In this document: positions 11,209 to 44,501 of the stretch, piece by piece
Layout of the letters: each line of letters opens with the position of its first letter
Position numbering within the stretch: the first letter of the stretch is position 1
Assembly (NCBI RefSeq): GCF_024223415.1
Contig: NZ_CP100502.1
Strand: one strand, 5' to 3'
DNA length: 64,000 nucleotides
Origin: Escherichia coli
Lineage (GTDB): Bacteria > Pseudomonadota > Gammaproteobacteria > Enterobacterales > Enterobacteriaceae
Program-made: the position numbers and the translations under genes
Notes under the pieces: model-generated
Told to the model about the DNA's origin: nothing
The model's database searches: none
The model's input: the letters and a program-made list of their open reading frames with translations, nothing else

Positions 11209-14200
11209 ATGCCCGTTGACTTTCTGACCACTGAGCAGACTGAAAGCTATGGCAGATTCACCGGTGAACCGGATGAGCTTCAGCTGGCACGATATTTTCA
11301 CCTTGATGAAGCAGACAAGGAATTTATCGGAAAAAGCAGAGGTGATCACAACCGTCTGGGCATTGCCCTGCAAATTGGATGTGTCCGTTTTCTGGGCACC
11401 TTCCTCACCGATATGAATCATATTCCTTCCGGCGTCCGGCATTTTACCGCCAGACAGCTCGGGATTCGTGATATCACCGTTCTTGCAGAATACGGTCAGA
11501 GGGAAAATACCCGCCGTGAGCATGCAGCGCTGATACGTCAGCACTATCAGTATCGTGAATTTGCCTGGCCCTGGACATTTCGCCTTACCCGTCTTTTATA
11601 TACCCGGAGCTGGATAAGCAACGAACGTCCTGGCCTGCTTTTCGATCTGGCGACAGGGTGGCTTATGCAACATCGTATTATTCTCCCCGGAGCCACTACG
11701 CTGACCCGGTTGATTTCAGAGGTAAGGGAAAAGGCGACGTTGCGCCTGTGGAACAAACTGGCACTGATACCGTCAGCCGAACAGCGTTCACAGCTGGAGA
11801 TGCTGCTGGGGCCAACTGATTGCAGCCGCCTGTCTTTACTGGAATCACTGAAAAAGGGCCCTGTGACCATCAGTGGTCCGGCGTTTAATGAAGCAATTGA
11901 ACGCTGGAAAACTCTGAACGATTTTGGCCTGCATGCTGAAAACCTGAGTACACTCCCGGCTGTGCGCCTGAAAAATCTCGCACGTTATGCTGGTATGACT
12001 TCGGTGTTCAATATTGCCAGGATGTCACCGCAGAAAAGGATGGCGGTTCTGGTTGCCTTTGTCCTTGCATGGGAAACGCTGGCGCTGGATGATGCATTGG
12101 ACGTTCTGGACGCCATGCTGGCCGTTATCATCCGTGACGCCAGAAAGATTGGGCAGAAAAAACGGCTCCGCTCGCTGAAGGATCTGGATAAATCTGCATT
12201 GGCGCTCGCCAGCGCATGTTCGTACCTGCTGAAAGAAGAAACACCGGACGAATCGATTCGTGCTGAGGTGTTCAGCTACATCCCAAGGCAAAAGCTGGCT
12301 GAAATCATCACGCTTGTCCGTGAAATTGCCCGGCCCTCAGACGATAATTTTCATGAAGAAATGGTGGAGCAGTACGGGCGCGTTCGTCGTTTCCTGCCCC
12401 ATCTGCTGAATACCGTTAAATTTTCATCCGCACCTGCCGGGGTTACCACTCTGAATGCCTGTGACTACCTCAGCCGGGAGTTCAGCTCACGGCGGCAGTT
12501 TTTTGACGACGCACCAACGGAAATTATCAGTCGGTCATGGAAACGGCTGGTGATTAACAAGGAAAAACATATCACCCGCAGGGGATACACGCTCTGCTTT
12601 CTCAGTAAACTGCAGGATAGTCTGAGGCGGAGGGATGTCTACGTTACCGGCAGTAACCGGTGGGGAGATCCTCGTGCAAGATTACTACAGGGTGCTGACT
12701 GGCAGGCAAACCGGATTAAGGTTTATCGTTCTTTGGGGCACCCGACAGACCCGCAGGAAGCAATAAAATCTCTGGGTCATCAGCTTGATAGTCGTTACAG
12801 ACAGGTTGCTGCACGTCTTTGCGAAAATGAGGCTGTCGAACTCGATGTTTCTGGCCCGAAGCCCCGGTTGACAATTTCTCCCCTCGCCAGTCTTGATGAG
12901 CCGGACAGTCTGAAACGACTGAGCAAAATGATCAGTGATCTACTCCCTCCGGTGGATTTAACGGAGTTGCTGCTCGAAATTAACGCCCATACCGGATTTG
13001 CTGATGAGTTTTTCCATGCTAGTGAAGCCAGTGCCAGAGTTGATGATCTGCCCGTCAGCATCAGCGCCGTGCTGATGGCTGAAGCCTGCAATATCGGTCT
13101 GGAACCACTGATCAGATCAAATGTTCCTGCACTGACCCGACACCGGCTGAACTGGACAAAAGCGAACTATCTGCGGGCTGAAACTATCACCAGCGCTAAT
13201 GCCAGACTGGTTGATTTTCAGGCAACGCTGCCACTGGCACAGATATGGGGTGGAGGAGAAGTGGCATCTGCAGATGGAATGCGCTTTGTTACGCCAGTCA
13301 GAACAATCAATGCCGGACCGAACCGCAAATACTTTGGTAATAACAGAGGGATCACCTGGTACAACTTTGTGTCCGATCAGTATTCCGGCTTTCATGGCAT
13401 CGTTATACCGGGGACGCTGAGGGACTCTATCTTTGTGCTGGAAGGTCTTCTGGAACAGGAGACCGGGCTGAATCCAACCGAAATTATGACCGATACAGCA
13501 GGTGCCAGCGAACTTGTCTTTGGCCTTTTCTGGCTGCTGGGATACCAGTTTTCTCCACGCCTGGCTGATGCCGGTGCTTCGGTTTTCTGGCGAATGGACC
13601 ATGATGCCGACTATGGCGTGCTGAATGATATTGCCAGAGGGCAATCAGATCCCCGAAAAATAGTCCTTCAGTGGGACGAAATGATCCGGACCGCTGGCTC
13701 CCTGAAGCTGGGCAAAGTACAGGTTTCAGTGCTGGTCCGTTCATTGCTGAAAAGTGAACGTCCTTCCGGACTGACTCAGGCAATCATTGAAGTGGGGCGC
13801 ATCAACAAAACGCTGTATCTGCTTAATTATATTGATGATGAAGATTACCGCCGGCGCATTCTGACCCAGCTTAATCGGGGAGAAAGTCGCCATGCCGTTG
13901 CCAGAGCCATCTGTCACGGTCAAAAAGGTGAGATAAGAAAACGATATACCGACGGTCAGGAAGATCAACTGGGCACACTGGGGCTGGTCACTAACGCCGT
14001 CGTGTTATGGAACACTATTTATATGCAGGCAGCCCTGGATCATCTCCGGGCGCAGGGTGAAACACTGAATGATGAAGATATCGCACGCCTCTCCCCGCTT
14101 TGCCACGGACATATCAATATGCTCGGCCATTATTCCTTCACGCTGGCAGAACTGGTGACCAAAGGACATCTGAGACCATTAAAAGAGGCGTCAGAGGCAG

Positions 14201-26641: not shown

Positions 26642-27232
26642 TTACGGAGCGGCACTTTCATTTATCTGTACGCGAACCTCCATTCCTGCATCGTGACAGG
26701 CCTGCAGCCACTGCGCCACTTCCAGCGGATCGCCCTCCCGGCGTACCACCCTGCCTTCTTTATTCCATAACTGCAGACAGGTGCTGCCGTCTAGACGCAC
26801 CACAAAATCCCCACGGCAGGCCTGATACGTTATGCCGTTCAGTTGCACCGCCAGATCAGTGGCAGAAGTGCCATCTGCGGGCAGACCTGCTGCCGGGACC
26901 AGCGGCAGTACGACGACTTCTGCCGCACGCTGTTCTGCCCGGAGGCGGTCCTGTTCTGCCAGCAGCAGAGGCTGTGCCACGGCCCGGCCGGCGTCCGTCA
27001 GCTCTACTGCCAGCTGCAGGTTCGGAGCGCGCAGGGTACGCAGCCAGCCGGCATCCTCCAGACGACGGCAGGAGGCGCGCAGGTTTGGCCCGTAGACCGG
27101 GGCTTCCCCGCTTCGCTCCAGCACCCGTTCTATGTCCCGCGTCAGCACGGGTCCTGGCCGTTTTTCATCAAGGGCAGCCAGCACAATCAGCACTCTCCGC
27201 TGCAGTGGCGACGGTCGGCGGCTCTGGGTCAT
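26642..27232 (-). CDS. Hypothetical protein with winged-helix-like N-terminus; markedly GC-rich gene
   Basis: 196-aa ORF; noticeably more GC-rich than flanking DNA; start overlaps stop of upstream ORF. Confidence 0.55.
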   Translation of the reverse strand: MTQSRRPSPLQRRVLIVLAALDEKRPGPVLTRDIERVLERSGEAPVYGPNLRASCRRLEDAGWLRTLRAPNLQLAVELTDAGRAVAQPLLLAEQDRLRAEQRAAEVVVLPLVPAAGLPADGTSATDLAVQLNGITYQACRGDFVVRLDGSTCLQLWNKEGRVVRREGDPLEVAQWLQACHDAGMEVRVQINESAAP

Positions 27233-27489
27233 TACCTGTCATCCTCCGGCCAGATGAGGTTTCTGAGGCGCTGAAAGTCGGCGTCAATGAGCTCCTGTCT
27301 CTTTATGGCATTCATTGAGGCATAGCCATTTATGGCCAGTTCATGCCAGAAGATCAGCACGGCTCCGGCTTTGGCTGACTCGCAGAGATAAATCGCGCCC
27401 TGGCTGTCCAGATTGCATTCCCGGATGCGTCGTTCCGCAAACCGGGTCAGTTGTTCATAGCTGAGTGAAAACGTCATTTCCTGATCCAT
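27232..27489 (-). CDS. Hypothetical small protein, first gene of a two-gene operon
   Basis: 85-aa ORF translationally coupled to the downstream gene. Confidence 0.5.
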   Translation of the reverse strand: MDQEMTFSLSYEQLTRFAERRIRECNLDSQGAIYLCESAKAGAVLIFWHELAINGYASMNAIKRQELIDADFQRLRNLIWPEDDR

Positions 27490-27839
27490 CCTGCACGCTC
27501 CATCTGATAATATTCTGACAGGTAATAATCATATCCTGAATGATTTGTGTGCTCCTGATTTCTGATAATATCAGATATGGTTTTATCATCAATGATGAAA
27601 ATCATATCTGATATGATTTTATGTGTATTTTTTATTATCATATCATTTGCGTCTTTTCTGCCGCGCAGATCCGGTTTCCGGCGGTTCCGGAGATTTAAAT
27701 TCCATCGGTACTGACAGGGCGTTAAACACAGGTATTATCGAACGGTTCTGTTTTCTAATGCTAAGCTTCAAACCAGCTGCCCATGCCGTCAATACAGATG
27801 CACCGATGCGCTTGCGTGGCTTTTCAGGGAGATAAAGTT

Positions 27840-28841
27840 ATGGCCGATCCATTCAATCTGCAGACCGATGTGGTCAGGCAGCATACGGTTCCCCGTTTTT
27901 TACTGAAGCATTTCAGTACGCCGGGAAAGGGTAAGCGGCAGCGCTTATACGCCTTTGACAAGGCTGCCGGGCGCGCCTATGCCACCACGCCGGATGACGC
28001 GACCGTCCGCAACACGTTCTACAACCTCGATAATCACCCGGACCGTCTGAGTCTTGAACCACTGCTGGGGATTTACGAGCACCACGCGGCACCGGTAATT
28101 GCAGCCCTGCTGGCGCACAGGGATATTCGCAGGCTGACAGATGATGAACGCTACAGGCTGGCCGTGTTTGTTGCCGTGCAGCGCGCACGAACCTTCGGTG
28201 AACTGGAGCGTATCTCAGGCATGATTTCGGTGCTTACCGATAAGATGGAGGCCATCGGCTCGACTAAAGAGCAGGCCATGGAAACCCTGGGCCTGTCGTC
28301 CGGGGGCGATACCAAGGATATTTTTCTGCGGCAGCTCGTCCAGCAGGTGTCACATATTGATCTCCTGCTGAAAAAGGACTGGTACCTTCTGGAAACCAGG
28401 CCAGAACGTCCGTTTTACGTATCAGACAATCCCGTAGTGCTTAAGAACAGCAATGACTTCGGTCCGTACGGTAATCTTGGTCTGGCCGTTCGCGGGATAC
28501 AGATTTACCTCCCCCTGTCATCGACGCTGATGCTGGCCATGTATTGCCCCTCCATCCGTGAACAGATGGTTCGTCAAAAGCAGCATCTTCAACATCTGCT
28601 CGCCAGGGCGCCGCATCTTATCCCCCGTCACATTCGGCCTTTTGAAAGACTGGAACATATCCGGAGGTATACGGACTATCTTCTTATGCCGCTTACCCCG
28701 GAGCATGTCACGCATTACAATTCCCTGCAGGTGGAGTTCGCGGAGCAGTACGTGTTCTGCGGTGAAAAGGATTTCTCTCTGGTTGAGAGAATGCTGGCCG
28801 ATAGTGAACGCTACCGGACTGGCCCGCGGTTTACGTTTTAG
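27840..28841 (+). CDS. DUF4238-family protein, candidate single-gene anti-phage defence
   Basis: N-terminal HTVPRFLLKHF matching the DUF4238 signature; 333 aa from MADPFNLQT with SD GGGAG. Confidence 0.65.
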   Translation: MADPFNLQTDVVRQHTVPRFLLKHFSTPGKGKRQRLYAFDKAAGRAYATTPDDATVRNTFYNLDNHPDRLSLEPLLGIYEHHAAPVIAALLAHRDIRRLTDDERYRLAVFVAVQRARTFGELERISGMISVLTDKMEAIGSTKEQAMETLGLSSGGDTKDIFLRQLVQQVSHIDLLLKKDWYLLETRPERPFYVSDNPVVLKNSNDFGPYGNLGLAVRGIQIYLPLSSTLMLAMYCPSIREQMVRQKQHLQHLLARAPHLIPRHIRPFERLEHIRRYTDYLLMPLTPEHVTHYNSLQVEFAEQYVFCGEKDFSLVERMLADSERYRTGPRFTF

Positions 28842-29016: not shown

Positions 29017-29361
29017 TTACTTTAGCAGAGTAAATCTTCGGCAAGTGGCGGTAACCACTTTACCGATACCCCAGAGTAGTCCGCGCTTTACTGGCGTGAC
29101 CCATAGTGCCGAAACCGCAAATTTCGACACTATAAAGGCCTTCAGCCAGGGCACTACAAACCAGACCACCGCAGCACAGAGACCCACATAGGCCATAAGA
29201 AGCAAAATACAGAGACAGGCGCTCCAGTATTGCTTCTGGCAAATATGGTCCCTGGTTCCGATAACCAGGCGTTTAACGGTGGAGAAAATCGTCCAAATAA
29301 AATGGATTTCAGTCTGGAATGGGAATAGAACCGTTCCCTCGGTGTCTAACAAGTTTTTCAT
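29017..29361 (-). CDS. Predicted small membrane protein
   Basis: 114-aa ORF with SD GGGAGG 7 nt upstream; two hydrophobic helices. Confidence 0.4.
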   Translation of the reverse strand: MKNLLDTEGTVLFPFQTEIHFIWTIFSTVKRLVIGTRDHICQKQYWSACLCILLLMAYVGLCAAVVWFVVPWLKAFIVSKFAVSALWVTPVKRGLLWGIGKVVTATCRRFTLLK

Positions 29362-29859
29362 AGAACCCTCCCGGGTAAGTATTTACAAAAGTAACTGTCT
29401 TGATTTTGGTCATCTCAATAACCTCGTTTTTAAGTCAAAAGGCACCCGGCGCCTCACACACGTGAACGCTGTTAATGCCGTACAGAATGTTTTATCTTTC
29501 AGCTCTGTTATGATGTGTTCATTCGCATCCTCCTGTTTGTCATACCGATTTTAAGCTCGTTCCGGGGGCTCCCCGGAAAAAAATCCAAAAAAATCCGGGC
29601 CGGAATGGTGATAACCAGTCTGGCGGGAAATAAACGGATCTTGTTGGGGTGGAGCGGGACGGAACAATACTATGAGAGTAATGTTAACAGAAATCACCGC
29701 CTTTGTCAAGGCGCACTTATCCATTAAAGCAACTATAGCATAGTAATACTGATGTCAATTTAGCAAAAAGTGCTATCCGTCGTTCTGCTGTATGTCTATT
29801 TTCCTTCACCTCCGGGCAACCTGGCGAATACATTTTTACTTTTTTTGCCCCCTGCCCCC

Positions 29860-30114
29860 TCAGAGTACCGAGACGAAGAGATGTGTGGCCACGCCCTGCC
29901 GGCGTCCGGTAAACGGCCCCTGCGCCGTACCCGCTGACAGCCGGCATTTTCGCCCGGAACGGGTGAAGGCTGACTTGAGCGATTTGGAGGCCTCCCGCAG
30001 CGCATCCTCAAGACCGGTGTTCAGACAGAGCCTCACCACCGCCCCTGAAGGGAGACGGGCAATCTCCGCGAAACTCTCTCCGCCGGTAACATAGCGGCTC
30101 TGTCGTCCTTTCAT
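29860..30114 (-). CDS. Small GC-rich ORF downstream of the 308-aa gene
   Basis: 84-aa ORF with SD AGGAGG. Confidence 0.35.
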   Translation of the reverse strand: MKGRQSRYVTGGESFAEIARLPSGAVVRLCLNTGLEDALREASKSLKSAFTRSGRKCRLSAGTAQGPFTGRRQGVATHLFVSVL

Positions 30115-30158
30115 TGTATCCTCCTGATGATGCAGTTGTGCCCGCAGATCCGGGTCCG

Positions 30159-31085
30159 TTACAGCAGGTTTTCTTCCACCACGTTGATCAGCGCCTGAGC
30201 GACATCCCCGAGCGGGGTGGGATTGTGATCTTCTTCCACACCGTTGGTGTAAAGGTGAAGCTCACACACCCCGTCCACAAAACGGAAGGCCTTGTCCCAC
30301 CTGTCGGGTTCGGCGCTGATCAGGGCGCTGTAGCCCGGATCGGCGGTAAAGAGGCGGTATTCAAGCTCCGGGAACGGGATGTTCCACATCTGGGTGGCGT
30401 AATTTTCCGGGAGGCTCAGTGTAACGCGCCATGCGCCGCGGGCGTAATTTTCCGGGCGGTAGATACGCACCGTGATGCCATCCCGCGTCCAGCTGTCGCC
30501 GGTGAGGGCAGGCAGTTTTTTCAGGGCGCGGATGGCCTCGATATCTTGGTAAAAGCGGTGTTTTTTTTCCCTCAGTTGCGAGTAGAAGATATTTTTCCAG
30601 GCCTGGTCGATGGTTTCCCTGTCCCGGCCGGCGATCTCGGCAAACAGGGAGAAGGTCAGGGAGATCCCGCGCGGGATATTTTTCCACCCCTTAAGCACCT
30701 GGTCGGCACGGACCTGCAGGAAGGGGGTGTTGTTCAGTACCAACCGGCGGAGCTCCTCTTCCGTCGAGATCCCCAGCAGCTTCTGGTATTCCTGATTCCA
30801 GCGGGTGATAAAATGGCTCTGGTAGCGCTGCTCCATGACCTTAGCGTCCAGATAACTGGCCAGCTCCTCATCCAGGGAGGCGATGAGCGGGTTCTTCAGG
30901 GCAAAGCTGTCGATGACGTCGCGGAAGCTGTCTTCCAGGAACTCACGCAGAAACGTCGCCTTTGGCTTACGGGCGTGGCTTGCCAGGTCGGTGATCACCC
31001 GGTCGGTGTCAGCGGGGATGTTCCGCAGGGTATACGTTACGCTCTCTCCACCGTCGTTTGTCATGTCATGTTCTTTTTCACTCAT
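30159..31085 (-). CDS. Hypothetical protein with ribbon-helix-helix-like N-terminus and uncharacterised C-terminal domain
   Basis: 308-aa ORF; N-terminal VTYTLRNIPADTDRVITDLASHARKPKATFLREFL. Confidence 0.55.
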   Translation of the reverse strand: MSEKEHDMTNDGGESVTYTLRNIPADTDRVITDLASHARKPKATFLREFLEDSFRDVIDSFALKNPLIASLDEELASYLDAKVMEQRYQSHFITRWNQEYQKLLGISTEEELRRLVLNNTPFLQVRADQVLKGWKNIPRGISLTFSLFAEIAGRDRETIDQAWKNIFYSQLREKKHRFYQDIEAIRALKKLPALTGDSWTRDGITVRIYRPENYARGAWRVTLSLPENYATQMWNIPFPELEYRLFTADPGYSALISAEPDRWDKAFRFVDGVCELHLYTNGVEEDHNPTPLGDVAQALINVVEENLL

Positions 31086-31616
31086 CCCGCGTACCTTTTC
31101 ATGTGAGGGGGCATTGCTGCAATACTTATACTCTATCCTGGTTTTGAGTGTCTTTAAATACTGCGAAGCATACGTTTTTATAATTCGTATGCTTCGCTGT
31201 CTGTTTTCTGTTCACTTCCTTTTCTGAGATCCGAAAACCCCAGGTCACGGATCTTCCTCTCCCCCCACACAACGCCACCTCCTGTAAGCACAATATGTAG
31301 TGCTGCATTCAGCTGCTGATGACACTATATGTTGTGTTATTTCCCTTGCCTGTGATGCGCCGTGCAGGGGCGGAAAACAGCGATATGATTATTTCCTCAT
31401 CGTGGTACACTTCCGGAAAGTTGTGATATTCCGGAAAGTCGGATCTGACGGAAACGGCTCTCCGGTAATTTAACTGCGTGGTTATATGGATGCTTGTTAT
31501 CATGGTGATGATGATAACGGCATGATGTTATCAGACGGCGTGACGGTAAGGGCAGTGATGATGGATGACGTTATCGCATGACCGTCCCTGCCCGGAAAAG
31601 AAAAAAGGAGTCACCC

Positions 31617-33721: not shown

Positions 33722-34030
33722 ATGAGCAAAGCGAAATTTAGTGCACAGGCTGAAAAACTGAAAAACCTGGTGGATTCTGCCAGATTACAAACTTCTTCTT
33801 CTGCCGTAACAGCAACAGCCCCGTCTCAGCCAAATGAAGGTGCAGAGGAAGTTTCAGGTCGTCCCGTGGCTGCCAGGACGAAGGCTAAGAATCTTAAGGC
33901 CATACCGCTGTCGTATTTTGAAGCTCATGCGGAACTTAAAGCGACCAGTAAAACATCTCTGGATTTTAGCTCATATATTATTGAGGCTATAAGAGAGAAG
34001 CTTGAACGTGATGGTGCAATAGGTCAATAA
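33722..34030 (+). CDS. ParG/ParB-like small centromere-binding protein
   Basis: 102-aa ORF downstream of ParA; flanked by GGATATC/GGTATC-type repeats. Confidence 0.55.
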   Translation: MSKAKFSAQAEKLKNLVDSARLQTSSSAVTATAPSQPNEGAEEVSGRPVAARTKAKNLKAIPLSYFEAHAELKATSKTSLDFSSYIIEAIREKLERDGAIGQ

Positions 34031-42085: not shown

Positions 42086-42511
42086 ATGCAATATGCGAAA
42101 CCTGTCACTCTGAATGTTGAAGAGTGCGACCGTCTGTTTTTTCTGCCTTACCTGTTTGGCCAGGATTTTCTGTATGTCGAAGCGTCTGTGTACGCGCTGG
42201 CGAAAAAAATGATGCCGGAATATGAAGGCGGATTCTGGCACTTCATCCGCCTGCCGGACGGTGGCGGCTACATGATGCCGGATGGCGACCGTTTCCACAT
42301 AGTGAACGGTGCAAACTGGTTTGACCGTACCGTGAGTGCTGATGCCTGCGGCATCATTCTGACTTCCCTTGTGATTAACCGCCAGTTGTGGCTGTACCAC
42401 GACAGCGGTGATGCAGGACTGACCCAGCTTTACCGGATGCGCGATGCGCAGTTGTGGCGTCACATCGAATTTCACCCTGAATGCAACGCGATTTACGCGG
42501 CTCTGGACTGA
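42086..42511 (+). CDS. klcA: Antirestriction protein, KlcA/ArdB family
   Basis: 141 aa; [17 protein letters not shown] and C-terminal NAIYAALD motifs recalled from KlcA. Confidence 0.75.
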
Positions 42512-42557
42512 TTAACGGACGGGGCGGCAATGCCGCCCCTGTAAAGGAGACGAGAAA

Positions 42558-42980
42558 ATGTACTGTACTGTTAAAGAAATTATCCGCGAAGTGCTGGATA
42601 CAGACGTGCCGGACAGTGAATGCGTTTTTGCCGTGGTGCTGACCCGTGGGGATGTGCGTCACATAGCCCAGGACTGGAACCTGTCAGACGATGAGCTGGA
42701 AACCGTCATGCAGCGGCTGGACGATGCCTTTGAGCATGGTGCGGATGTCAGCGTTGTTCACGACGTTGTTCGTGAACTGATGGAAGAAAAGCGCGCCAGC
42801 CGTCATGTGACAGTCCCGGCGATGATGCTGGAAAAAGTGATGGCGCTGGCAGGCAGTGAAATGAAGCGCCTGTATGCCGTCGGAAGTGAGAACGGGGGCG
42901 ACGGTGACGCATTCGTCAGGGAGGAACGCGAAGCAATGGACGTTGTGTTACAGGCGCTGGACGGGGAGACGATGTCATGA
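42558..42980 (+). CDS. Hypothetical acidic leading-region protein
   Basis: 140-aa ORF with SD AAGGAGA. Confidence 0.5.
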   Translation: MYCTVKEIIREVLDTDVPDSECVFAVVLTRGDVRHIAQDWNLSDDELETVMQRLDDAFEHGADVSVVHDVVRELMEEKRASRHVTVPAMMLEKVMALAGSEMKRLYAVGSENGGDGDAFVREEREAMDVVLQALDGETMS

Positions 42981-43168
42981 ATATCAGCACAGAAACCCGC
43001 GAAATTCTGCGTAATTACAGGGCCGTGATTAATGCGCGGCGTCGTGAAATGGGGCAGAAACCGCTCACCACCGCGCAGATTGTTGATGAAATCTGCGATT
43101 TTGTGGCGAATCAGCAGGCGGTTTTCCTGGGCGGTCACTACATCTTACAGGGCAGCAGAAACAGGTGA
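42977..43168 (+). CDS. Hypothetical small protein
   Basis: 63-aa ORF overlapping upstream stop. Confidence 0.4.
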   Translation: MNISTETREILRNYRAVINARRREMGQKPLTTAQIVDEICDFVANQQAVFLGGHYILQGSRNR

Positions 43169-43404
43169 TACAGGGGCAGGCGGTGGAGGCCGCCTGTCAG
43201 CCCGCGCGAAAACCCCTGGCAGGCTGACGCCTGCCGGAAGGGAAGCGGGCCACGCTGGCGCGTCGCCCGTTACCCTTCCCGTCTGTGATGTGTCTGACTC
43301 AGGAGTGTTTCTTTCTTATGTTATGGAACTGTTCCTGATGTTGTTGTTCCTTTATCTGCTGCTCTGATTCTGACTACTGCAGTGTTGTTCTGTCTGCCGG
43401 GCGC

Positions 43405-43920
43405 ACCTTCGGCTCCCGGCTGCCTGGCGGCATCCGGTCGTCAGGCCCGACTCCGACAGGCAGCTGCTGGCGCACCCGCCAGTCTCCGCCGAACCCGCTG
43501 GCGCGGTTTCGGGCTGTCGCTACGGTCCGATGCGTGAAAACCCGGGCTTGCAGCGACCGTTCCGGTCGCGCCGCCTCTGTCGCGCCGTGACCTGCGCTCC
43601 CTGCACACCTGACGGTGTGTGAGGAAACTGCGCCTGATGGCGCAGCAGTCCTCCCTCCTGCCGCCACCTCTGCGGCCTGTTTCCCGCTGTGGACTTTCCG
43701 GGGGGCAGACGTAACCCCCTCCCGTTCCATCTGTCCAGGGTGAGATGCACCGGCCACAAAATTTTTAGCCATGAACCCGGCAAAAAATTTTGCGTCCGCC
43801 CCCGGACAGCTGTCCCGTGAGGCGGTAAACGGGCCCCCATCGGAAAGGTCCACTGCGGGGAGAAACCCCTGTGAAGTGGACGGCAGGAGGAGCTTTCGCT
43901 CCTCTGAAGGGGCACATGAA
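43405..43920. repeat. Leading-region GC-rich repeat, family A copy 1 (Frpo/ssi-like)
   Basis: About 515 bp highly similar to 49739-50255 and, in part, 52815-53150; directly upstream of ssb. Confidence 0.7.
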
Positions 43921-43973
43921 CGTCCCGTCTCCGGTATCCGGTTTATCTCACATCTTTCAGTCAGGAGGTTCTT

Positions 43974-44501
43974 ATGAGTGCACGTGGTATCAACAAGGTC
44001 ATCCTCGTCGGGCGTCTGGGCAATGATCCGGAGGTCCGTTACATCCCCAACGGTGGCGCAGTGGCAAACCTGCAGGTGGCCACGTCAGAAAGCTGGCGCG
44101 ACAAACAGACGGGGGAGATGCGGGAGCAGACGGAATGGCACCGTGTTGTGCTGTTCGGCAAGCTCGCGGAAGTGGCAGGTGAATATCTGCGCAAGGGCGC
44201 GCAGGTCTACATCGAGGGGCAACTCCGTACCCGTAGCTGGGACGACAACGGCATCACCCGCTACATCACTGAAATTCTTGTTAAGACCACGGGCACCATG
44301 CAGATGCTGGGGAGTGCACCACAGCAGAACGCTCAGGCGCAACCGAAGCCTCAGCAGAATGGGCAGCCACAGAGTGCTGACGCGACGAAAAAAGGTGGCG
44401 CGAAAACGAAAGGCCGTGGACGTAAGGCCGCGCAGCCCGAGCCTCAGCCGCAAACGCCGGAGGGGGAGGATTACGGGTTTTCAGACGACATCCCGTTCTG
44501 A
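43974..44501 (+). CDS. ssb: Plasmid single-stranded DNA-binding protein
   Basis: 175 aa; OB-fold N-terminus, Gln/Pro-rich linker, acidic tail DDIPF. Confidence 0.95.

What the first reader, a model, noticed from the sequence alone, without database searches (positions are those of the whole stretch)
29860..31085. 308-aa protein with ribbon-helix-helix-like N-terminus plus a small downstream ORF
The N-terminus (VTYTLRNIPADTDRVITDLASHARKPKATFLREFL) resembles ribbon-helix-helix DNA-binding modules, fused to an uncharacterised domain of about 250 aa. An 84-aa GC-rich ORF with a strong ribosome-binding site follows on the same strand. The pair could be a regulator-effector or toxin-antitoxin-like unit.
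Basis: inference. Interest (0 to 1): 0.4.

Follow-up and report, generated by a model that had tools for sequence, protein, structure and literature searches.

The report
Regulator pair heading plasmid phage-abortion cassette
Two real but unnamed genes on a ColIb-type IncI1 plasmid, a 308-residue DNA-binding protein and an 84-residue basic partner, travel as a fixed unit with the membrane gene annotated as the classical ColIb "abortive infection" gene ibfA. They are therefore most likely the control or sensor half of a phage-defence cassette whose workings have never been solved.

Summary
Both ORFs exist exactly where stated, on the minus strand: 308 aa at 30159-31085 and 84 aa at 29860-30114. 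Both are under purifying selection (dN/dS 0.13-0.40 and 0.13-0.22). The window is a ColIb-P9-type IncI1 conjugative plasmid.

The ribbon-helix-helix (RHH) guess is right. Distant homologues of the N-terminus hit FitA-like_RHH, RHH_1 and HicB models. The rest of the 308-aa protein is a helical middle domain plus a C-terminal domain of about 105 aa that has no Pfam model and no clear structural match.

The 84-aa protein is basic (pI 11.2). It has a confident small alpha/beta model that resembles no known toxin.

The pair is not free-standing. It forms a conserved, mobile triplet: the pair, a conserved leader of about 500 nt, then a 114-aa membrane protein. That 114-aa gene is the one annotated ibfA in ColIb-P9, linked to abortive infection of phages T5 and BF23. 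Relatives of the 308-aa protein repeatedly sit directly upstream of Abi_2 / PD-T4-5 effectors on other plasmids.

My best reading is an autoregulated RHH regulator or sensor, with a small partner, at the head of an abortive-infection cassette. A toxin-antitoxin pair is not excluded. Function is inferred throughout, not shown.

The parts
30159..31085 (-). Gene for the 308-aa acidic protein (35.7 kDa, pI 5.2): RHH + helical middle domain + conserved C-terminal domain. RefSeq WP_001290416.1, 'hypothetical protein'.
   Evidence: ORF. Annotation. dN/dS 0.13-0.40. Frame conserved in 7 loci. 52 word-indexed homologues and 222 deep-search homologues. AF2 pLDDT 81. Mass and pI.
30924..31040 (-). Ribbon-helix-helix DNA-binding module, residues about 16-54: strand TYTLRNI, helix 25-37, G/R-K-P-K turn, helix 42-54.
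   Evidence: Homologues' N-termini hit FitA-like_RHH (E 2.1e-7), RHH_1 and HicB. PDB profile hits VapB, MazE7 and FitA. Helices in the model.
30522..30917 (-). Helical middle domain, residues about 57-188. It occurs together with the RHH as stand-alone proteins of about 190 aa elsewhere.
   Evidence: AF2 secondary structure. Proteins of about 190 aa matching profile positions 9-195. Such proteins directly precede Abi family genes in L027 and L030.
30162..30497 (-). C-terminal beta-rich domain, residues about 197-308, with no Pfam model. Signature: P211, Y214, G217-A218-W219, P239, R244, Y279, N281-G282, E285, N288-P289-T290.
29860..30114 (-). Gene for the 84-aa basic protein (9.0 kDa, pI 11.2), RefSeq WP_000678527.1. 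AGGAGG at 30125-30120.
31160..31200 (-). Candidate operator: inverted repeat ACAGCGAAGCATACG-N11-CGTATGCTTCGCAGT, 75-115 nt upstream of the 308-aa ATG.
   Evidence: Repeat found. Equivalent GTATGC/GCATAC repeats, with changed arms and in L011 as direct repeats, sit at the same place upstream of homologues in L011-L013 and L004. The half-site occurs nowhere else in the module.
31125..31158 (-). Candidate sigma-70 promoter of the 308/84 operon: AAGACA-18-TATAAG or TTTAAA-17-TAGAGT. It abuts the repeat.
   Evidence: Hexamer scoring. The CAGTATTTA and CCAGGATAGAGT blocks are conserved in L011-L013. The stricter scan found no promoter here, so this part is tentative.
29362..29859 (-). Conserved non-coding leader between the 84-aa gene and ibfA. 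It holds a palindrome TAGCACTTTTTGCTA (29775-29761), two promoter-like sites (29758-29732 and 29709-29681), a 4-codon mini-ORF with a ribosome-binding site (29535-29508), an invariant hairpin followed by T4 (29453-29437), and a uORF from 29413 that overlaps the ibfA start.
   Evidence: Alignment of 5 loci. Scans. RNAalifold: 68 pairs, 10 with compensatory changes. No Rfam match.
29017..29361 (-). 114-aa membrane protein (hydrophobic stretch at residues 44-86, pI 9.8). It is the gene annotated ibfA / 'abortive infection protein' in ColIb-P9-type plasmids and is the probable effector of the cassette.
   Evidence: PMC8004404 gives ColIb-P9 ibfA as NC_002122 nt 13401-13745. With the offset, that equals window 29017-29361. 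Annotated ibfA or abortive infection protein. Hydropathy. dN/dS 0.35-0.61. Always 3' of the pair in L011-L013, L005, L033 and L036.

Best explanation
The 308-aa protein is a dimeric RHH DNA-binding protein. It has a FitA/VapB-type RHH, a helical domain and a previously undescribed C-terminal domain. With its small basic 84-aa partner, it forms the regulatory or sensing head of a mobile three-gene abortive-infection cassette. The effector of that cassette is the 114-aa membrane protein annotated IbfA, from the ColIb locus that aborts T5 and BF23 infection.

Proposed working, all of it inferred:
- The RHH dimer binds the GTATGC/GCATAC repeats that abut its own promoter and represses the 308-84 operon.
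- The helical and C-terminal domains, together with the 84-aa protein, receive an infection signal or gate the effector.
- IbfA, itself held down by a long structured leader with upstream ORFs, then damages the membrane.

What is shown:
- Both genes are coding.
- The N-terminus is homologous to RHH modules.
- The triplet is conserved and moves between plasmid backbones.
- Family members are repeatedly coupled to Abi-type effectors.
For: 1. Coding status and RHH homology.

2. The triplet 308 / 84 / gap of about 495 nt / 114 aa keeps the same spacing in different surroundings:
- L011, L012 and L013.
- An IncFII Klebsiella aerogenes plasmid, L033.
- A 36%/55%/34%-identical copy in L005.

3. Plasmid record counts are similar for the three genes: 388 (308-aa gene at 60% identity or more), 413 (84-aa gene) and 459 (114-aa gene).

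4. The 114-aa gene is ColIb-P9 ibfA (PMC8004404 coordinates; annotations). According to PMC10644984, ColIb ibf/abi aborts T5 and BF23 infection with loss of membrane potential, is triggered by the T5 A2 protein, comprises ibfA and ibfB, and its products have not been identified.

5. Other effectors sit downstream of relatives:
- Abi_2 / PD-T4-5 follows the 308-like gene in L003.
- Abi_2 / PD-T4-5 follows the 309 + 84-like pair in L004.
- Abi family genes follow the RHH + helical-only relatives in L027 and L030.
- Abi_2 / PD-T4-5 (E 1e-65 to 1e-70) follows RelB-type RHH + C-domain proteins in L004, L021 and L022.

6. Repeats at the promoter change their sequence between homologues but keep their position.

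7. No terminator-like site was found between the 308-aa and 84-aa genes on the minus strand.
Against: - There are no functional data for either gene.
- PD-T4-5 was reported as a single-gene defence (PMC9519451), so an upstream RHH gene is not generally required for Abi_2 activity.
- The operator half-site does not recur in the ibfA leader, so direct control of ibfA by the 308-aa protein is unsupported.
- ibfA seems to have its own promoter-like sites.
- The family often sits next to plasmid resolution sites and integrases, so linkage with defence genes could partly reflect a shared cargo hotspot.
- I could not read the 1982 and 1988 papers that mapped ibfA and ibfB. Whether either gene corresponds to ibfB is therefore unknown.
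Confidence: 0.5

Rival explanations
1. The pair is a type II-like toxin-antitoxin (addiction or Abi) module in its own right. The acidic 308-aa RHH protein would be an enlarged antitoxin and autorepressor, and the basic 84-aa protein a new kind of toxin. IbfA would be a neighbour only.
For: - Gene order, 44-nt spacing and strong ribosome-binding site fit.
- An acidic partner (pI 5.2) with a basic one (pI 11.2) is typical.
- The RHH is of the FitA/VapB antitoxin type.
- The small protein is more conserved than the large one, 55% against 36% in L005.
- The pair occurs without ibfA in L004.
- C-domain proteins are annotated as RelB/DinJ antitoxins in some records.
Against: - The 84-aa protein matches no toxin family in Pfam, NCBIfam or PADLOC.
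- Plasmid CP165586.1 has three indels in the 308-aa gene but an identical, intact 84-aa gene. This is weak evidence: the indels could be sequencing errors, and an N-terminal 120-aa fragment remains.
- Several 308-like genes lack any 84-like partner (L003, L005 first copy, L009).
Confidence: 0.22
2. The 308-aa protein is a plasmid housekeeping regulator tied to the adjacent multimer-resolution and partition region (rfsF site, ResD-type recombinase, ParA). Its linkage to defence genes is incidental, because cargo is exchanged at that site.
For: Family members lie divergently next to a ResD-type integrase in the window, L004, L005, L009, L012, L026, L027, L028 and L031. R64 carries a different RHH-headed ORF in the same position. 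PMC8004404 reports exchange of the variable gene sets at rfsF.
Against: The triplet keeps its own promoter and repeats, and occurs with no integrase beside it, in L011, L013, L033 and L030. Homology to the R64 backbone starts only at 31226, outside the gene and its repeats. The partner downstream on the same strand is repeatedly an Abi-type gene.
Confidence: 0.15
3. The 84-aa ORF is a chance open frame in G+C-rich DNA. The real gene would lie on the other strand, as in the 'ybeA' annotation.
For: 62.7% G+C. An antisense ORF exists in the window and is annotated in pSTM709.
Against: dN/dS is 0.13-0.22, with most differences at third codon positions in the sense frame. Homologues at 54-59% identity are intact in L004, L005 and L033. 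The AF2 model has pLDDT 88.8. Antisense frames are broken in other loci.
Confidence: 0.02

Closest known systems
FitA / VapB-type ribbon-helix-helix antitoxins (Pfam FitA-like_RHH, RHH_1)
   Same: The N-terminal strand-helix-helix carries the 'IRN(I/V)P...' strand and the G-K-x-K turn. The gene lies upstream of a small basic partner. Repeats sit at its own promoter.
   Different: The protein is 308 aa rather than about 70-90 aa. It has a helical domain and a conserved domain of about 105 aa instead of a short toxin-wrapping tail. The partner is not a PIN domain or any recognised toxin.
AbiE (AbiEi/AbiEii) type IV toxin-antitoxin abortive-infection system (comparison from my own knowledge)
   Same: A protein of about 300 aa with an N-terminal DNA-binding module and a C-terminal functional domain precedes a smaller partner, in an abortive-infection context.
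   Different: AbiEi uses a winged helix-turn-helix, not an RHH, and AbiEii is a nucleotidyltransferase. There is no sequence or fold match here.
Lambda RexA/RexB (comparison from my own knowledge)
   Same: A cytoplasmic DNA-binding sensor is paired with a small membrane protein whose activation collapses membrane potential. ColIb ibf/abi likewise causes loss of membrane potential (PMC10644984).
   Different: No homology was detected. This cassette has three genes, and the membrane gene lies behind a long separate leader.
ColIb-P9 ibf/abi locus (ibfA and ibfB; abortive infection of T5 and BF23)
   Same: Same plasmid type and position. The 114-aa gene 498 nt downstream of the pair is the annotated ibfA (PMC8004404).
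   Different: Neither the 308-aa nor the 84-aa gene is named or implicated in any text I could read. The ibf products are reported as unidentified (PMC10644984).
PD-T4-5 / AbiD-AbiF (Abi_2, HEPN-type) defence genes
   Same: In related loci these are the genes directly downstream of relatives of the 308-aa protein.
   Different: No such gene is present in this window, where the downstream gene is the IbfA membrane protein. PD-T4-5 was described as a single-gene system (PMC9519451).

Membership tests
Ribbon-helix-helix (MetJ/Arc/CopG) superfamily | Sequence-profile match to RHH families | tested here: met
   The window protein itself has no significant hit. N-terminal segments of homologues do hit: FitA-like_RHH (4 of 20, best E 2.1e-7), RHH_1 (6 of 20), HicB, NikA-like, RHH_4 and RHH_5. 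Several of those homologues match the family profile at E around 1e-29 to 1e-54.
Ribbon-helix-helix (MetJ/Arc/CopG) superfamily | Strand-helix-turn-helix topology with a glycine or small-residue turn before helix 2 | tested here: met
   Helices 25-37 and 42-54 follow the segment TYTLRNI. The family consensus turn is A-G-K-P-K. The strand is not modelled in the monomer (pLDDT below 50 for residues 1-21), which is expected if it forms only on dimerisation.
Ribbon-helix-helix (MetJ/Arc/CopG) superfamily | Dimerisation and binding to repeated operator sites | not testable with these tools
   Only indirect evidence: repeats abut the promoter and are maintained in position among homologues.
Type II toxin-antitoxin system | Adjacent co-directional genes, with the upstream one carrying a DNA-binding domain | tested here: met
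   44-nt gap, same strand, RHH upstream.
Type II toxin-antitoxin system | Downstream protein belongs to a recognised toxin family or fold | tested here: not met
Type II toxin-antitoxin system | Toxicity of one partner, neutralised by the other | not testable with these tools
   Needs expression assays. One natural plasmid has a frameshifted 308-aa gene and an intact 84-aa gene, which argues weakly against this.
ColIb ibf/abi abortive-infection locus | Physical linkage to the annotated ibfA gene on a ColIb-type IncI1 plasmid | tested here: met
   ibfA is window 29017-29361, 498 nt downstream on the same strand (PMC8004404). The triplet is conserved in at least 6 divergent loci.
ColIb ibf/abi abortive-infection locus | Genetic requirement for inhibition of T5/BF23; identity with ibfB | not testable with these tools
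   [quoted passage not shown] No text I could read names these two genes.
Known anti-phage defence proteins (PADLOC-DB 2.0) | Profile match | tested here: not met
   No PADLOC hit for the 308-aa, 84-aa or 114-aa proteins.

The most novel reading that the evidence does not exclude
The 308-aa and 84-aa proteins are the missing, never-identified component (possibly 'ibfB') of the classical ColIb abortive-infection system. They would be a sensor and regulator that detects the T5/BF23 pre-early DNA-binding protein A2 and releases the IbfA membrane effector. The unannotated C-terminal domain (signature GAW...R...Y-x-N-G-x-x-E-x-x-N-P-T) would be a general sensor or adaptor domain that couples RHH regulators to different Abi effectors (IbfA, or Abi_2 / PD-T4-5) on more than 1,100 enterobacterial plasmids.
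Probability: 0.22. Interest if true: 0.7.

Novelty: new variant of a known kind. Interest (0 to 1): 0.5.

Why it matters
ColIb-mediated abortive infection of T5 and BF23 has been known since 1968. Its trigger (the phage A2 protein) and its outcome (membrane depolarisation) are known. A 2023 paper still states that the gene products are unidentified and the mechanism is unknown (PMC10644984).

Showing that annotated ibfA always travels with these two unnamed genes gives a concrete three-gene unit, about 2.2 kb, to clone and dissect.

The cassette is on about 400 sequenced plasmids and in 193 of 5,426 complete E. coli genomes. Many of these are IncI1 plasmids from poultry and clinical isolates, so it may affect phage typing and phage therapy.

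More broadly, relatives of the 308-aa protein head Abi_2 / PD-T4-5 genes on many Klebsiella and E. coli plasmids. Defence-gene catalogues currently list those effectors as single genes.

Tried and rejected
- **R64 gene names.** I first suspected the pair were ydfA/ydeA of R64, which are co-transcribed with R64 ibfA (PMC12111858). They are not. R64 ydfA/ydeA correspond to window 27232-27489 and 26642-27232, and R64 has no homologue of the 308-, 84- or 114-aa genes.
- **Genome-collection scan.** Scanning with the family alignment returned only 2 loci.
- **Phage records.** tblastn of the 308-aa protein found nothing.
- **Rfam.** Nothing real on the region.
- **pESBL-EA11.** I hoped to use its published Tn-seq, but this plasmid lacks the cassette.
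- **Literature.** Searches for ibfB and ibfC returned only unrelated acronyms.
- **Complex prediction.** A fused 308+84 prediction was not attempted, because the structure tool returns no coordinates or PAE, so an interface could not be judged.
- **'ibfC'.** This 48-aa ORF, annotated in the leader in pSTM709, is not a conserved ORF. I treat that stretch as regulatory RNA/DNA.

Full report
**Observation**

The window carries two co-directional ORFs on the minus strand: 308 aa at 30159-31085 and 84 aa at 29860-30114, separated by 44 nt. An AGGAGG lies 5 nt before the second ATG. The small ORF is 62.7% G+C against 53.1% for the window.

The DNA is 100% identical to an E. coli IncI1-type conjugative plasmid and 99.9% identical to many others. 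RefSeq calls both products hypothetical proteins, WP_001290416.1 and WP_000678527.1.

**Are they genes?**

Yes, both are.
- Across divergent copies (L011, L012, L013, L005), dN/dS is 0.13-0.40 for the large gene and 0.13-0.22 for the small one.
- Differences pile up at third codon positions of the sense frame.
- The sense frames stay open in seven loci. The long antisense ORFs, which one author annotation (pSTM709) named 'SeT3' and 'ybeA', do not.
- AF2 models are confident: pLDDT 81 for the 308-aa protein and 88.8 for the 84-aa protein.

**The 308-aa protein**

It has no direct hit in Pfam, NCBIfam, PADLOC, PHROGs or PDB sequences.

A word-indexed search found 52 relatives, all in Enterobacterales, down to 39% identity. 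An exhaustive profile search found 222 relatives.

The model shows four parts:
- residues 1-21, disordered;
- two helices, 25-37 and 42-54;
- a helical domain, 57-188;
- a beta-rich domain, 197-280, closed by helix 292-307.

The RHH reading rests on transitive homology. N-terminal segments of 20 family members were scanned one by one. Four hit FitA-like_RHH (best E 2.1e-7), six hit RHH_1, three hit HicB, and others hit NikA-like, RHH_4 and RHH_5. A profile of these segments ranks the antitoxins VapB, MazE7 and FitA first in the PDB, at non-significant E-values of 0.1-0.7. The unmodelled first strand is what one expects of an RHH predicted as a monomer.

The C-terminal domain of about 105 aa is a mobile unit. 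In 74 diverse sequences it occurs in three settings:
- alone;
- behind short RHH modules, in proteins of about 170 aa;
- behind other N-termini, including RelB/DinJ-type RHH.

**The 84-aa protein**

**Context: a three-gene cassette**

In L011, L012 (Lelliottia), L013, L033 (an IncFII plasmid of Klebsiella aerogenes) and L036, the pair is followed by a gap of about 495 nt and then a 114-aa gene, while the flanking genes differ. A second, much more divergent copy of all three genes (36%, 55% and 34% identity) lies in L005.

tblastn finds the three genes in similar numbers of plasmid records:
- 388 records for the large gene at 60% identity or more;
- 413 for the small gene;
- 459 for the 114-aa gene.

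The cassette is in 193 of 5,426 complete E. coli genomes, with 217 of 220 copies on plasmids.

The 114-aa product has a hydrophobic stretch at residues 44-86. It is the gene annotated ibfA in ColIb-P9. PMC8004404 gives NC_002122 nt 13401-13745, which maps to window 29017-29361 using the offset. Several records call it 'abortive infection protein'.

According to PMC10644984, the ColIb ibf/abi locus has these properties:
- it aborts T5 and BF23 infection;
- it is triggered by the phage pre-early protein A2;
- it causes loss of membrane potential;
- it was defined genetically as ibfA and ibfB;
- its products have not been identified.

bioRxiv 10.1101/866236 adds that A2 is a dimeric dsDNA-binding protein and is sufficient for the effect.

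**Other effectors behind relatives**

Relatives of the 308-aa protein precede other Abi-type effectors.
- In L003 the 308-like gene is followed by an Abi_2 gene that matches the PADLOC model PD-T4-5.
- In L004 a 309-aa homologue is followed by an uncalled but intact 84-like ORF (54% identity), and then by an Abi_2 / PD-T4-5 gene.
- RHH + helical-only relatives directly precede 'Abi family protein' genes on Klebsiella IncFII plasmids (L027, L030).
- RelB-type RHH + C-domain proteins precede strong PD-T4-5 homologues (E 1e-65 to 1e-70) in L004, L021 and L022.

In all, tblastn finds relatives of the 308-aa protein on 1,169 plasmid records, 517 of them from Klebsiella. None was found in phage records.

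**Regulatory DNA**

Between 75 and 115 nt upstream of the 308-aa ATG lies an inverted repeat with 15-bp arms (31160-31200). It abuts a promoter-like pair of hexamers.

Homologous loci carry GTATGC/GCATAC repeats at the same place. Their sequences are altered, and in L011 they are in direct orientation. That pattern fits a protein-binding site better than an RNA hairpin. The half-site occurs nowhere else in the module.

The 498-nt stretch between the 84-aa gene and ibfA is a conserved leader. It contains:
- a palindrome;
- two promoter-like sites;
- a 4-codon mini-ORF with a ribosome-binding site;
- an invariant hairpin followed by T4;
- an upstream ORF that overlaps the ibfA start.

**Interpretation**

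The best-supported reading is an autoregulated RHH protein with a small partner at the head of an abortive-infection cassette. The domains other than the RHH would serve sensing or gating. This is inference from anatomy and linkage.

Points against it:
- PD-T4-5 works as a single gene (PMC9519451).
- ibfA appears to have its own control region.
- The family often sits beside plasmid resolution sites. Homology to the R64 backbone begins at 31226, and integrases are adjacent in many loci. Some of the linkage could therefore come from a shared cargo hotspot.

A toxin-antitoxin reading is still open. In its favour are the acidic/basic pairing, the antitoxin-type RHH and the better conservation of the small protein. 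It is weakened by the lack of any toxin-like feature in the 84-aa protein. It is also weakened by a natural plasmid with a frameshifted 308-aa gene and an intact 84-aa gene.

**Novelty**

The general kind, an RHH regulator or antitoxin-like protein coupled to an Abi effector, is known. This particular architecture, its C-terminal domain and the 84-aa protein are undescribed in every library searched. The possible link to an abortive-infection system known since 1968 is new as far as the texts available to me show.

Noticed in passing
window 31202-31336: A stretch of about 75-100 nt (31202-31300) matches more than 2,800 plasmid records, including IncF types. Homology of the window to the R64 backbone begins at 31226. 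The stretch holds a GATCCG...CGGATC hairpin and is followed by imperfect repeats CACAATATGTAGTG / CACTATATGTTGTG. It is probably the rfsF-type site of the adjacent ResD-like recombinase and the boundary of the exchangeable Col/Delta gene sets (PMC8004404).
   Followed up: partly
window 29362-29859: The ibfA leader is conserved in 5 loci. It holds the palindrome TAGCACTTTTTGCTA, two promoter-like sites, a 4-codon mini-ORF (MNTS) with a strong ribosome-binding site, an invariant hairpin followed by T4, and a 34-codon uORF overlapping the ibfA start. RNAalifold also predicts pairing of the leader's 5' end with the ibfA start region. This recalls hok/mok-type control of small membrane toxins. The annotated 'ibfC' ORF inside it is not conserved.
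   Followed up: partly
window 29792-30094 (+) and 30114-31106 (+): Long antisense ORFs lie opposite the two genes. pSTM709 (HG428759) annotates antisense ORFs as 'ybeA' and 'SeT3' opposite the 84-aa and 308-aa genes. They are broken in related loci and are almost certainly spurious.
   Followed up: yes
window 27783-28841 (+): A DUF4238 gene lies convergent with ibfA. The same arrangement sits next to the cassette in L012 and L033, while L011 and L013 have a DUF4145 gene there instead. It has no PADLOC hit.
   Followed up: partly
window 26642-27489 (-): An 85-aa + 196-aa overlapping gene pair is homologous to R64 ydfA/ydeA. In R64-type plasmids these are co-transcribed with the unrelated R64 ibfA (ATPase-TOPRIM, HEC-04) defence gene (PMC12111858). 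The 196-aa protein hits phrog_19460 (E 3.5e-7).
   Followed up: partly
L015 12368-14011 (R64 nt 42367-44010): R64 has, at the position equivalent to the 308-aa gene next to rfsF, an unannotated minus-strand ORF of 276 aa. It has a different RHH-like N-terminus (LNLRFHKKLIEALKTRAGRENTSVNALAERFL) and continues in another frame, so it is possibly a pseudogene.
   Followed up: no
L036 2615-3540 (CP165586.1): A natural plasmid has three indels in the 308-aa gene, while the 84-aa and 114-aa genes are identical to the window's. This is either pseudogenisation or sequencing error.
   Followed up: partly
L005 6001-11116: One metagenomic plasmid contig carries two paralogues of the 308-aa gene. One stands alone beside the integrase. 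The other is part of a full triplet. A HEPN_RES_NTD1-RES gene lies between them and a KAP NTPase gene lies after them.
   Followed up: partly
window 33722-34030 (+): The 102-aa ORF after the ParA gene ends in an RHH-like segment (SLDFSSYIIEAIREKLERD). It is probably the centromere-binding partner of ParA.
   Followed up: no
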